From: a virus
Lineage: Duplodnaviria; Heunggongvirae; Uroviricota; Caudoviricetes
Length of the DNA stretch: 15,966 nt
IMG/VR virus record: IMGVR_UViG_2872185964_000002
Direction: 5' to 3' (one strand)
Under the pieces are notes generated by a model. It saw only the letters and a list, made by a program, of their open reading frames with translations. It did not search any database and was not told the origin of the DNA. Numbering within the stretch: position 1 is the stretch's first letter; the number at the start of each line of letters is the position of its first letter. A program made the position numbers and the translations under genes. Below, piece after piece: positions 12,952 through 13,905 of the stretch.

Positions 12952-13718
12952 GCATTCCGGGATTTGGCCCGGGCATGGGCATCTGCCCGCGATGATTTAC
13001 GGCATGCAAGGCAACGTCTGAAATCGTTTCTTCTGGTTCATGGGGTCCATTATGTCGGGCGAGCAGATTGGGGCCCTGCACACCGACGCTGGCTCAGCAA
13101 ATACTCATTCGAAAGTCCCTGGCGACAATTAGCTTTTGACGAACACCGTCGTACAATAGAAGACCGGCAGGCACAATGTGAACGGCTGGAATCCGCCCTG
13201 AAGGAGGCCGTTACCGAATGGAGGCTGTATCCGGTAGTAGAGGCGCTGCAAGCCATGCGAGGGATTCAGTTTATTACTGCGGTTGGATTAATTTCTGAAC
13301 TGGGTGATCTGACCCGTTTTGAACATCCACGACAACTGATGTCATGGTTTGGTATCACGCCATCAGAATATTCATCGGGTGGAAGCAGACATCAGGGCAG
13401 CATTACCAAAGCCGGAAACAGCTATGCCAGAAAGCTATTGGTCGAGGCAGCGTGGAGTTACCGTCATCCGGCACGCATCAGTCCGGCAATACAAAAAAGG
13501 CAGGAAAATTTACCCCGCCCCGTCATTGACAGAGCATGGGATGCTCAACTCAGGCTTTGTAAGAGGTATCGAAAACTTCAGGCCAAAGGAAAGAATGTCA
13601 ATATTACAATTGTTGCTGTTGCACGTGAGCTGGCGGGTTTTATCTGGGATATGGGCCGAATAGCAATGTCTGTCGCACAACAACCACAATGTCACAAATA
13701 AAAAATGAGAATAACCAG

Positions 13719-13905
13719 TTCCCTGAAGGCGACGTAGCCCGGTACAAGAGTAACCCACGTTAGCGCTTGGCGACGGCGGAACAAAGCTGATTCGCGACGT
13801 AAGAAAGTGGCAGGCTCATATGACGGACCTCTGTAATGCGGTATCCAACCCGCGAATATCAGCGTGATTCACCGTCGGATTTACTGCTACGTCGCCCTCA
13901 GGGAA
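13719..13905. other. 187-bp non-coding module bounded by 20-bp inverted repeats (TTCCCTGA[A/G]GGCGACGTAGC), between the IS110-family gene stop and the IS66 end; candidate structured ncRNA or MITE-like remnant
   Basis: 13719-13738 versus reverse complement of 13886-13905 match at 19 of 20 positions; no ORF inside. Confidence 0.35.

What the first reader, a model, noticed from the sequence alone, without database searches (positions are those of the whole stretch)
13702..13905. 187-bp inverted-repeat-bounded module downstream of the IS110-family recombinase: candidate 3'-encoded seekRNA-like ncRNA or MITE
Eighteen bp after the recombinase stop, a 20-bp sequence (13719-13738) is repeated in inverted orientation 147 bp away (13886-13905) with one mismatch, enclosing a non-coding segment that ends where IS66-derived sequence begins. 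In the IS1111 subgroup of IS110-family elements the guide RNA is encoded downstream of the recombinase; a long-range stem of this kind is what such an RNA or the element's subterminal repeats would look like. A small MITE-like insert is the alternative.
Basis: partly seen in the sequence, partly recalled or inferred. Interest (0 to 1): 0.7.

Follow-up and report, generated by a model that had tools for sequence, protein, structure and literature searches.

The report
Guide RNA gene of insertion sequence ISSso6
The inverted repeat is the closing stem of the guide RNA (seekRNA / bridge RNA) gene at the 3' end of the known insertion sequence ISSso6, and this RNA directs the element into the tip of IS66-family transposon ends; it is a clean example of a mechanism described in 2024, not a new one.

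Summary
The 20-nt inverted repeat (13719-13738 / 13886-13905, 19/20) is real. It is the outer stem of a ~190-nt structured module in the 267-bp 3' non-coding region (13702-13968) of ISSso6. ISSso6 is a 1.52-kb IS1111-type IS110-family element, split in this window by an IS3-family insertion.

The module is conserved in more than 40 distinct relatives whose transposases are 43-81% identical. 98.4% of predicted pair cells are paired, 8 pairs show compensatory changes, and G·U pairs fit only the transposase strand.

One internal loop carries two short variable segments. GTTAGCGCTTG (13759-13769) is antisense to the target across the insertion point. ACGTAAG (13797-13803) is sense to the left flank plus AG. 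Both co-vary with the flanks of each relative (0 of 20,000 permutations reach the observed match). For ISSso6 they spell the tip of the IS66-family terminal repeat, GTA-AG-CGT(C/T)AAC, which is where the element sits.

The MITE and subterminal-repeat alternatives fail.

Durrant et al. 2024 already list ISSso6 with a bridge RNA detected in its right end. The kind, and this instance, are therefore known; only the guide and target assignment is added here.

The parts
11133..11135 (+). GTA: the first three bases of the IS66-family terminal repeat (left half of the target), not part of ISSso6
   Evidence: Intact ISEc23/IS682 tips read GTAAGCGTCAACGG. Copy L099 has ATA here instead, so these bases belong to the target.
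11136..11640 (+). ISSso6 left part: junction dinucleotide AG (11136-11137), left end, left subterminal repeat, and transposase codons 1-126 (from ATG 11263)
   Evidence: 100% identical to L001 1744-2251. PF01548 DEDD_Tnp_IS110 match.
11142..11155 (+). Left subterminal inverted repeat TATGACTTTCCGTG
   Evidence: Exact reverse complement at 13951-13964. The same architecture is seen in 61 related loci.
11641..12948 (-). IS3-family insertion sequence (1308 bp, TG...CA ends) that interrupts the ISSso6 transposase gene; 3-bp duplication GAG at 11638-11640 and 12949-12951
12949..13701 (+). ISSso6 transposase, C-terminal part, through stop codon 13699-13701
   Evidence: PF02371 Transposase_20. 99.9% identical to L001.
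13702..13968 (+). ISSso6 3' non-coding region (right end), 267 bp
   Evidence: Boundary set by copies with different flanks.
13719..13905 (+).
   Evidence: MFE -79 to -88 kcal/mol, z about -4.7 to -4.9. Helix 1 has 4 pairs with compensatory changes; 98.4% of pair cells paired against 32-46% for slid controls. Plus strand 98.4% paired against 89.9% for the minus strand.
13755..13810 (+). Target-binding arm: stem P4 (13755-13758 with 13807-13810), an internal loop, and apical stem-loop P5 (13770-13775 with 13787-13795)
   Evidence: RNAalifold consensus. P4 and P5 each carry compensatory changes.
13759..13769 (+). T guide (equivalent to the right target guide), GTTAGCGCTTG. [quoted passage not shown]
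   Evidence: 9 Watson-Crick + 2 G·U of 11 for the L001 target. Across the family 5.5 of 9 non-core positions pair, against 2.7±0.24 when permuted, 0 of 20,000. Positions -4,-3 track the right-junction dinucleotide.
13797..13803 (+). B guide (equivalent to the left target guide), ACGTAAG. It has the same sense as the left flank plus AG; GTAAG is the IS66 tip. In this window ACGTAAG matches all 7 bases of the flank tacGTAAG
   Evidence: Family: 3.26 of 5 against 1.83±0.18 when permuted, 0 of 20,000. The last two bases are AG in every relative scored.
13856..13863 (+). ATATCAG+C: same sense as the ISSso6 right end (ATATC), junction AG and first flank base. Candidate guide for the donor (right-end) side
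   Evidence: ATATCAG is conserved in nearly all relatives. The following base equals the first flank base in 27 of 31, against 15.7±2.0 when permuted, 0 of 20,000.
13882..13888 (+). TACTGCT: antisense to the left end GGCAGTA. Weak candidate guide for the left end
   Evidence: Match read directly from the sequence. It is invariant, so there is no covariation, and it does not follow left-end changes in L071, L104 or L106.
13947..13952 (+). TTGACA, a perfect -35 hexamer in the right end. In the circular form it would lie 17 nt upstream of CAGTAT (11139-11144) in the left end
   Evidence: Read from the sequence. TTGACA is kept in nearly all relatives. No sigma-70-like promoter is found in the linear form.
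13951..13964 (+). Right subterminal inverted repeat CACGGAAAGTCATA
13967..13968 (+). Right-junction dinucleotide AG (core)
   Evidence: AG is the 2-bp overlap between the intact IS66 tip GTA-AG-CGTCAACGG and the two junctions. It co-varies with the T guide.
13969..14990 (-). Remainder of an IS66-family element (ISEc23/IS682-like right terminal repeat and the 3' part of tnpC), which is the target ISSso6 inserted into. G13969 is an extra base compared with most copies

Best explanation
The module is the guide-RNA gene of ISSso6, an IS1111-type member of the IS110 family of RNA-guided DEDD recombinases.

Shown here:
- It lies in the long 3' non-coding region, inside the element's subterminal repeats.
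- One arm (P4 / internal loop / P5) presents two short programmable segments. [quoted passage not shown] The 3' segment ACGUAAG has the sequence of the left flank plus AG, so it would pair with the bottom strand.
- Together they specify GTA-AG-CG(T/C)(T/C)AAC. This is the tip of the right terminal repeat of IS66-family elements, and ISSso6 sits in it.
- A third conserved segment, AUAUCAG+N, has the sequence of the element's own right end, the AG, and the first flank base.

Inferred from published work on relatives (ISEc11, ISKpn4, ISPa11 and IS621; PMC11187229, PMC11208160):
- The RNA is co-transcribed with the transposase from a promoter assembled at the circle junction (TTGACA in the right end, 17 nt, CAGTAT in the left end).
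- It is processed to a long (~190 nt) form and a shorter form that carries the target-binding arm.
- It binds the transposase and licenses recombination at the AG.

In this window the transposase gene is broken by an IS3-family insertion. This copy cannot move on its own, but it keeps intact ends and an intact guide gene.
For: - Anatomy: full 1524-bp copies and the element's boundaries. Transposase domains PF01548 + PF02371 and NCBIfam 'IS110 family RNA-guided transposase'. A 14-bp subterminal repeat with short terminal extensions in ISSso6 and 60 related loci.
- Structure: MFE z about -4.7.
- Strand: 155 G·U cells; 98.4% paired on the plus strand against 89.9% on the minus strand.
- Guides: register-fixed T and B segments match each element's own flanks far better than other elements' flanks. 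T scores 5.5 of 9 against 2.7±0.24; B scores 3.26 of 5 against 1.83±0.18; 0 of 20,000 permutations reach either.
- T positions -4,-3 read CU with junction AG in 14 of 14. UU goes with AA or AG, CC with GG or AG.
- Target: intact ISEc23/IS682 tips read GTAAGCGTCAACGG. ISSso6 copies lie in at least three sequence variants of that tip, each with a different outer flank. A non-IS66 site, GTA-AG-CGCTGAG, fits the T guide even better.
- Order of the segments (top-strand match 5' of bottom-strand match, overlapping at the insertion point) is as reported for IS1111 seekRNAs.
- Durrant et al., Supplementary Table 5, lists ISSso6 as IS1111 group with bridge RNA detected in the RE.
Against: - There is no direct evidence of a transcript, of processing, or of binding to the transposase for ISSso6.
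- No sigma-70-like promoter was found in the linear element. The junction promoter is only a 9-of-12 match read by eye.
- No Rfam family matches the region.
- Donor recognition is unresolved. AUAUCAG is conserved even where the right end reads ATACCAA (L103/L104). The candidate left-end guide UACUGCU shows no covariation.
- One group of ISSso6 copies (L003, L006, L007) has a right flank, TGAATGTGC, that fits the T guide poorly.
- The transposase is 375 aa, longer than the 330-350 aa quoted for typical IS1111 transposases.
Confidence: 0.9

Rival explanations
1. The module is a MITE-like non-autonomous element bounded by its own inverted repeats, which landed downstream of the recombinase and spreads independently.
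For: It is bounded by a near-perfect 20-bp inverted repeat. Six E. coli genomes carry the module without an adjacent transposase gene.
Against: - Copy numbers track the transposase: 98 places for the module against 104 for the left end plus tnp.
- The solo copies are the last 284 bp of ISSso6, including 19 nt of the ORF and the right end, still joined to an IS66 tip. They are 5'-truncated remnants with no left end and no duplication.
- The bounding repeat is unrelated to the element's recombination ends.
- The module holds the same position in every relative, down to 43% protein identity.
Confidence: 0.02
2. The palindrome works at the DNA level, for example as a cruciform or a protein-binding site for end recognition or synapsis, and not as an RNA.
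For: Both strands fold about equally well. The covariation was measured on DNA sequences and cannot by itself tell DNA pairing from RNA pairing.
Against: - There are 155 G·U(T) pairs on the plus strand, which become C·A mismatches on the minus strand (98.4% against 89.9% paired).
- The unpaired loop segments, not the stems, carry the flank-matched variation. This is the signature of a guide.
- Relatives in the family have RNA purified with the transposase, and it is required in trans (PMC11187229).
Confidence: 0.04
3. It is only a 3'-UTR stability element or terminator for the transposase mRNA, with no guide function.
For: It is a strong stem immediately after the stop codon.
Against: - No U-run follows the stem, and the terminator scan finds nothing on the plus strand.
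- The structure is far more elaborate than a terminator.
- Co-variation between the loops and the flanks has no explanation under this model.
Confidence: 0.03

Closest known systems
seekRNAs of IS1111-family elements ISEc11, ISKpn4, ISPa11 and ISPst6 (Siddiquee et al. 2024, PMC11187229)
   Same: - Encoded in the long non-coding region downstream of the DEDD transposase, inside subterminal inverted repeats.
[quoted passage not shown]
- The scaffold is conserved and the guides are naturally re-programmed among relatives.
- A -35 hexamer in the right end is suited to a circle-junction promoter.
- The long form is of similar size (145-170 nt reported; about 190 nt here).
   Different: - The transposase is only about 17-25% identical to the other IS in that paper's identity matrix and is longer (375 aa).
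- The scaffold sequence is unrelated as far as tested.
- The target is the tip of the IS66-family terminal repeat.
- There are no experimental data for ISSso6.
IS621 bridge RNA, IS110 group (Durrant et al. 2024, PMC11208160; Hiraizumi et al. 2024, PMC11208158)
   Same: - An internal-loop guide reads both DNA strands, with a shared core dinucleotide included in both pairings.
[quoted passage not shown]
   Different: - The RNA is at the 3' end of the element, not the 5' end.
- The order of the two guides in the loop is reversed.
- A clean second (donor-binding) internal loop is not evident. The candidate donor-side bases lie around a multi-branch junction, as Durrant et al. remark for many IS1111 elements.
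- The core is AG, not CT (the IS621 core CT is from my own knowledge).
[quoted passage not shown]
   Same: An IS1111-type element whose specific target is the terminal inverted repeat of another transposable element, entered in a fixed orientation.
   Different: The target here is the IS66-family repeat tip (GTAAGCGTCAAC), 5 bp from the end, not the Tn21-family 38-bp repeat (that length is from my own knowledge).
ISPpu9 / Ssr9 small RNA of Pseudomonas putida (PMC12288879; abstract seen)
   Same: An IS110-family element with a small-RNA gene downstream of the transposase gene. Some copies of the RNA gene occur without the transposase.
   Different: It is a different host, target (REP sequences) and RNA. 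Here the solo copies are decayed remnants. I did not read that paper beyond its abstract.

Membership tests
IS1111-type seekRNA / IS110-family bridge RNA | [quoted passage not shown] | tested here: met
   A 267-bp region lies between the stop codon (13701) and the right end (13968). The upstream non-coding part is 127-130 bp.
IS1111-type seekRNA / IS110-family bridge RNA | The partner protein is a DEDD (RuvC-like) IS110-family transposase with the C-terminal PF02371 domain and the G--P----SG motif | tested here: met
   PF01548 + PF02371 and NF033542 'IS110 family RNA-guided transposase' at 274 bits. GITPSEYSSG is present in the translation. In the window the gene is split by an IS3-family element.
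IS1111-type seekRNA / IS110-family bridge RNA | The element has subterminal inverted repeats with short terminal extensions (IS1111 type) | tested here: met
   (T)ATGACTTTCCGTG at 11142-11155 and its reverse complement at 13951-13964. The left extension is AGGCAG(T) and the right extension is (A)TC before the AG. The same holds in 61 loci.
IS1111-type seekRNA / IS110-family bridge RNA | Secondary structure conserved among relatives and supported by covariation | tested here: met
   48 pairs, 98.4% of cells paired, 8 pairs with changes on both sides, slid controls 32-46%. G·U pairs favour the transposase strand.
IS1111-type seekRNA / IS110-family bridge RNA | [quoted passage not shown] | tested here: met
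   T guide 13759-13769 and B guide 13797-13803, on opposite sides of the P4/P5 internal loop. They overlap on AAG of GTAAGCGTTAAC.
IS1111-type seekRNA / IS110-family bridge RNA | Guide segments co-vary with the insertion site among relatives (programmability) | tested here: met
   31 distinct guide pairs; 0 of 20,000 permutations reach the observed match for either guide. The core-reading dinucleotide tracks the junction.
IS1111-type seekRNA / IS110-family bridge RNA | Segments that recognise the donor (the element's own ends) | tested here: inconclusive
   AUAUCAG equals the right end plus core, and the next base follows the flank in 27 of 31. The motif stays the same where the right end differs (L103/L104). 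The candidate left-end guide does not covary.
IS1111-type seekRNA / IS110-family bridge RNA | The RNA is made, binds the transposase and is required for excision and insertion | not testable with these tools
   Shown only for other family members (PMC11187229, PMC11208160).
IS1111-type seekRNA / IS110-family bridge RNA | Match to a curated RNA family model | tested here: not met
   cmscan against Rfam 15 found no hit at E up to 10 in 12900-14100. This is not a defining feature, and I did not check whether Rfam holds a model for this RNA class.
MITE (miniature inverted-repeat element) | A short non-coding unit bounded by the terminal repeats of a parent transposon, flanked by target-site duplications | tested here: not met
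   The bounding repeat is an internal RNA stem unrelated to the ISSso6 ends. The solo copies lack a left end and any duplication.
MITE (miniature inverted-repeat element) | Many copies that occur independently of the transposase gene | tested here: not met
   98 places against 104 for the left end plus tnp in 5,426 E. coli genomes. The exceptions are truncated remnants.
IS1111 subterminal inverted repeats | A repeat pair a few bp inside both ends of the element | tested here: not met
The true pair is 11142-11155 / 13951-13964.
Intrinsic terminator | A GC-rich hairpin followed by a U-run on the transcribed strand | tested here: not met
   No plus-strand site was found in 13400-14000. The stem is followed by AUUAAACCUAAAAAG.

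The most novel reading that the evidence does not exclude
The ISSso6-type RNA may carry a third programmable read-out besides the two target guides. The conserved AUAUCAG plus one variable base copies the integrated right junction (element end, core, first flank base). If so, the same RNA would check the element-flank junction, for example to license excision only from a correct target or as a 'handshake' with the recombination product. The clade (ISSso6 plus its Burkholderiaceae relatives, with 31 distinct natural guide pairs on one scaffold) would then be a natural data set for IS1111-type donor recognition, which is still unresolved. A corollary is that the broken copy in this window could still supply guide RNA, or be mobilised in trans with its IS3-family insertion as cargo.
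Probability: 0.3. Interest if true: 0.5.

Novelty: already known. Interest (0 to 1): 0.3.

Why it matters
The finding gives the non-coding tail of a catalogued Shigella/E. coli insertion sequence its correct annotation: a guide-RNA gene with an explicit structure, guide segments and target. It explains why ISSso6 copies sit at the tips of IS66-family elements in the IS-rich virulence-plasmid regions of Shigella and enteroinvasive E. coli.

It also shows that ISSso6 belongs to a large clade, mostly in Burkholderiaceae, that keeps one RNA scaffold while swapping guides. That clade is useful comparative material for design rules of IS1111-type programmable recombinases. It does not change the current understanding of the mechanism.

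Tried and rejected
- Rfam scan of 12900-14100 at E up to 10: no hit.
- Sigma-70 promoter scans of the 3' region and the left end in the linear form: none found. Only a circle-junction promoter can be read by eye.
- The ~95.5%-identity E. coli class whose 3' region did not hit (H105-H115) looked like a naturally re-programmed variant. It is a copy truncated at ISSso6 nt 1337 by other sequence.
- The second internal loop (13742-13747 / 13818-13823) varies among relatives, and I tested it by eye as a possible extra guide. I found no match to flanks, ends or subterminal repeats. Only one extra covarying pair (U/C at 13743 with A/G at 13823) extends P2.
- UACUGCU as a left-end guide: no covariation, and no match in L071, L104 or L106.
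- The first spacer base after the B guide against the third base of the left end: no relation.
- The second and third bases after AUAUCAG against the flank: no relation.
- Locus L017 has a second module about 2.4 kb upstream. It lies near the start of the contig and I took it, without checking, to belong to a neighbouring copy rather than a solo module.
- Two protein alignment calls failed on pseudogene copies.

Full report
**Observation.** The inverted repeat is exactly as described: 13719-13738 (TTCCCTGAAGGCGACGTAGC) and 13886-13905, 19 of 20 complementary, 147 nt apart. It starts 18 nt after the TAA stop at 13699-13701. By my own arithmetic such a repeat is expected about 2e-4 times in the 2.4 kb searched. 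One descriptive detail is wrong. The enclosed segment does not end where IS66 sequence begins; 63 more bases (13906-13968) belong to the same element.

**What the element is.** The 3' region and the recombinase gene match 'IS110-like element ISSso6 family transposase' loci in E. coli genomes.
- Full copies are 1524 bp as aligned (L001 1744-3267). Comparing copies with different flanks fixes the ends.
- In the window the element is in two pieces, 11133-11640 and 12949-13968. They are separated by a 1308-bp IS3-family insertion with a 3-bp duplication, GAG.
- The intact protein is 375 aa, with PF01548 (DEDD_Tnp_IS110) and PF02371. It scores 274 bits on NCBIfam 'IS110 family RNA-guided transposase'.
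- The element has 14-bp subterminal inverted repeats, TATGACTTTCCGTG at 11142-11155 and the reverse complement at 13951-13964. It has about 130 bp of non-coding sequence upstream and 267 bp downstream. That is the IS1111-type layout described by Siddiquee et al..

**Target.** Immediately right of the element lies IS66-family sequence (PF03050 tnpC on the minus strand).
- Uninterrupted ISEc23 and IS682 ends read GTAAGCGTCAACGGAGCACCGTATTGACGC.
- ISSso6 copies read ...GTA-AG-GCAGTATGAC...[element]...GTCATATC-AG-CGTCAACGG. The element therefore sits inside the tip of the IS66 terminal repeat, with AG as the 2-bp overlap.
- The 'GTA' at 11133-11135 is target, not element. One copy has ATA there (L099).
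- Copies occur in at least three sequence variants of the IS66 tip (CGTCAACGGAGCACC, CGTTAACGGAGTGCC, CGTTAATGGAGCACC), each with a different outer flank. These are independent insertions.

**Relatives.** A scan of one genome per species found 131 relatives. The best 80 were kept. All have transposases 71-81% identical to ISSso6 and nearly all come from Paraburkholderia, Caballeronia and Cupriavidus.
- 61 of them could be parsed. All show flank | AG(G/T/A)CAG-TATGAC...tnp...non-coding region...GTCATA-TCA(G/A) | flank, in many different sequence contexts.
- A scan of IMG/VR added more ISSso6 copies and four relatives at 43-48% identity.

**Structure.** The window sequence folds at -88 kcal/mol for 13702-13968, z = -4.7. 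An alignment of 34 distinct modules (A2) gives an RNAalifold consensus of 48 pairs.
- Pair counting shows 98.4% of cells paired, against 32-46% when partners are slid by 1-3 columns. Eight pairs have changes on both sides, and no shuffle of 500 reaches the observed covariation score.
It has four compensatory pairs, for example A-U to G-C and U-A to C-G.
- There are 155 G·U cells. The mirrored structure on the minus strand pairs only 89.9% of cells. This points to an RNA made from the transposase strand.

**Guides.** Between stems P4 (13755-13758 / 13807-13810) and P5 (13770-13775 / 13787-13795) lies an internal loop whose two sides are the most variable parts of the alignment.
- With the register fixed by the flanking stems, the 11 nt 5' of P5 are antisense to [2 nt of left flank + junction dinucleotide + 7 nt of right flank].
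- The 7 nt 3' of P5 equal [5 nt of left flank + AG].
- Examples: L040 has GCGGAAG for flank gcgga-AG, and UGGUAUUAC for GTAATACCA. L013/L079 have GAACAAG for gaaca-AG.
- With the constant core excluded and one representative per guide pair (n = 31), own-target scores are 5.5 of 9 (T) and 3.26 of 5 (B). Permuted scores are 2.7±0.24 and 1.83±0.18. Neither observed value is reached in 20,000 permutations.
- The two T-guide bases that face the core read CU where the right junction is AG (14 of 14). UU goes with AA or AG, and CC with GG or AG.
- For ISSso6 the T guide GUUAGCGCUUG (13759-13769) pairs with TAAGCGTTAAC with 9 Watson-Crick and 2 G·U pairs. The B guide ACGUAAG (13797-13803) contains GTAAG. 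Together they spell the IS66 tip.
- A non-IS66 insertion, at acaGTA-AG-CGCTGAG, fits the T guide even better (L093/L095).
- The order (top-strand match 5' of bottom-strand match, overlapping at the insertion point) is the one reported for IS1111 seekRNAs. It is the reverse of IS621, where the left target guide lies on the 5' side of the loop.

**Donor side.** This part is not settled.
- The conserved AUAUCAG (13856-13862) has the sequence of the right end (ATATC) plus AG. The next base equals the first base of the right flank in 27 of 31 guide classes, against 15.7±2.0 when permuted (0 of 20,000).
- However, the motif is unchanged in relatives whose right end reads ATACCAA (L103/L104).
- UACUGCU (13882-13888) is antisense to the left end GGCAGTA, but it never co-varies with it.
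- Durrant et al. note that in many IS1111 elements the putative donor-binding bases sit in a multi-loop. That is where these two motifs lie in the consensus fold. I treat this as a lead only.

**Expression.** No sigma-70-like promoter is found in the linear element. The right end carries a perfect TTGACA (13947-13952), kept in nearly all relatives. After circularisation it would stand 17 nt from CAGTAT in the left end. This matches the junction promoter described for ISEc11, with the RNA co-transcribed with the transposase and then processed. This step is inference.

**Alternatives.**
- MITE: the module occurs at 98 places in 30 E. coli genomes, and the left end plus tnp at 104 places in 50 genomes.
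  - The six genomes with a solo module carry only the last 284 bp of ISSso6, still joined to an IS66 tip.
  - The class that has tnp but gave no module hit, judged from the two loci I fetched (L090, L091), is truncated inside the 3' region.
- Subterminal repeats: these are a different pair of sequences.
- Terminator: there is no U-run.
- A purely DNA-level palindrome: disfavoured by the G·U asymmetry and by the fact that the loops, not the stems, track the flanks.

**Comparison with what is known.** The kind is established: seekRNA (PMC11187229) and bridge RNA (PMC11208160). ISSso6 itself is listed in Durrant et al., Supplementary Table 5, as 'IS1111' with 'Detected Bridge RNA End: RE'. Its protein is in the data set of Siddiquee et al.. 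I found no paper describing its RNA structure, guides or target; six papers in the library mention ISSso6 and none has it in the title or abstract. The added value here is the explicit structure, the guide and target assignment (the IS66-family repeat tip), and the Burkholderiaceae clade with natural re-programming. I rate the finding as already known in kind and instance, correct in its main interpretation, and of modest interest.

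Noticed in passing
window 11641-12948 (duplicated GAG at 11638-11640 and 12949-12951): A 1308-bp IS3-family element with ends TGAACCGCCCCGGG... and ...CCCGGGCGGTTCA is inserted in the ISSso6 transposase gene after codon 126, in the opposite orientation. E. coli records annotate it as 'IS3 family transposase | AL1L pseudoknot'. This ISSso6 copy is therefore non-autonomous but keeps both ends and its guide gene. From memory the size and ends look like IS629, which I did not verify.
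   Followed up: partly
window 13969; compare L096 and L097 (IMG/VR contigs) and L092: The window has one extra G between the ISSso6 right end and the IS66 tip (ATATCAG-G-CGTCAACGG), where most copies read ATATCAG-CGTCAACGG. L096 and L097 share the last ~22 bases of the window's left flank (agcgactcctgtgcaaaatac), so they look like the same site. L096 has the extra G and L097 lacks it, so it appears to be a later 1-bp polymorphism. Copy L004 has ATATCGGCGTC, an A-to-G change at the core.
   Followed up: partly
L092 1959-2173 (E. coli FDAARGOS_943 chromosome): One ISSso6 copy carries a 106-bp tandem duplication of the distal 3' region. It is bounded by the 10-bp repeat ATATCAGCGT, which occurs once inside the RNA gene (window 13856-13865) and once at the right end / IS66 junction. 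Slippage between these repeats would explain it. It also shows how closely the internal motif copies the integrated right junction.
   Followed up: partly
L003 3266-3290, L006 and L007 2766-2790: Three E. coli copies share the right flank TGAATGTGCTTCGG, next to a CaiF/GrlA-family regulator gene, but have two different left flanks. This right flank fits the T guide poorly (only GTA-AG plus a couple of bases). It could be an off-target insertion into another repeated sequence or a later rearrangement. No empty site was examined.
   Followed up: no
L093 and L095 (IMG/VR contigs), junctions at 1371-1376 and 2893-2905: An ISSso6 copy outside any IS66 sequence, at acaGTA-AG-CGCTGAGATGAC. Its right half, AAGCGCT, pairs with the T guide without the G·U pair and the mismatch seen for IS66 tips. 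The guide may therefore not have been selected for IS66 alone.
   Followed up: partly
L010-L089 (genome-contig loci): The closest relatives of this enterobacterial IS (71-81% protein identity) are almost all in Burkholderiaceae (Caballeronia, Mycetohabitans, Paraburkholderia, Cupriavidus), often in several copies per genome and inserted in repeated sequences. One example is ...gcgg(a/t)-A(A/G)-taccaacgcacggcgca in Paraburkholderia fungorum. This suggests transfer between classes of bacteria; composition was not analysed.
   Followed up: no
family-wide, junction dinucleotides: In elements whose T guide reads UU, the right junction is usually AA while the left junction is still AG. The left dinucleotide therefore seems to travel with the element and the right one to come from the target. 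That would place the crossover to the left of the 'core' and fits the 'no duplication, 7-bp left and 3-bp right extension' convention for IS1111 elements. Empty target sites were not available to settle it.
   Followed up: partly
window 13743 and 13823 (alignment A2 columns 27 and 113): U/C at the first position co-varies with A/G at the second (U-A or C-G in nearly all relatives). This extends stem P2 across a bulged G. The rest of this 6x6 internal loop varies without matching any flank or end.
   Followed up: partly
window 1-15966: The window is a mosaic of IS fragments (IS66 family, IS3 family, IS91, ISSso6) whose best matches are Shigella dysenteriae/boydii and enteroinvasive E. coli large plasmids. 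No single plasmid record covers more than 36% in one place, so this exact arrangement is not in PLSDB.
   Followed up: no
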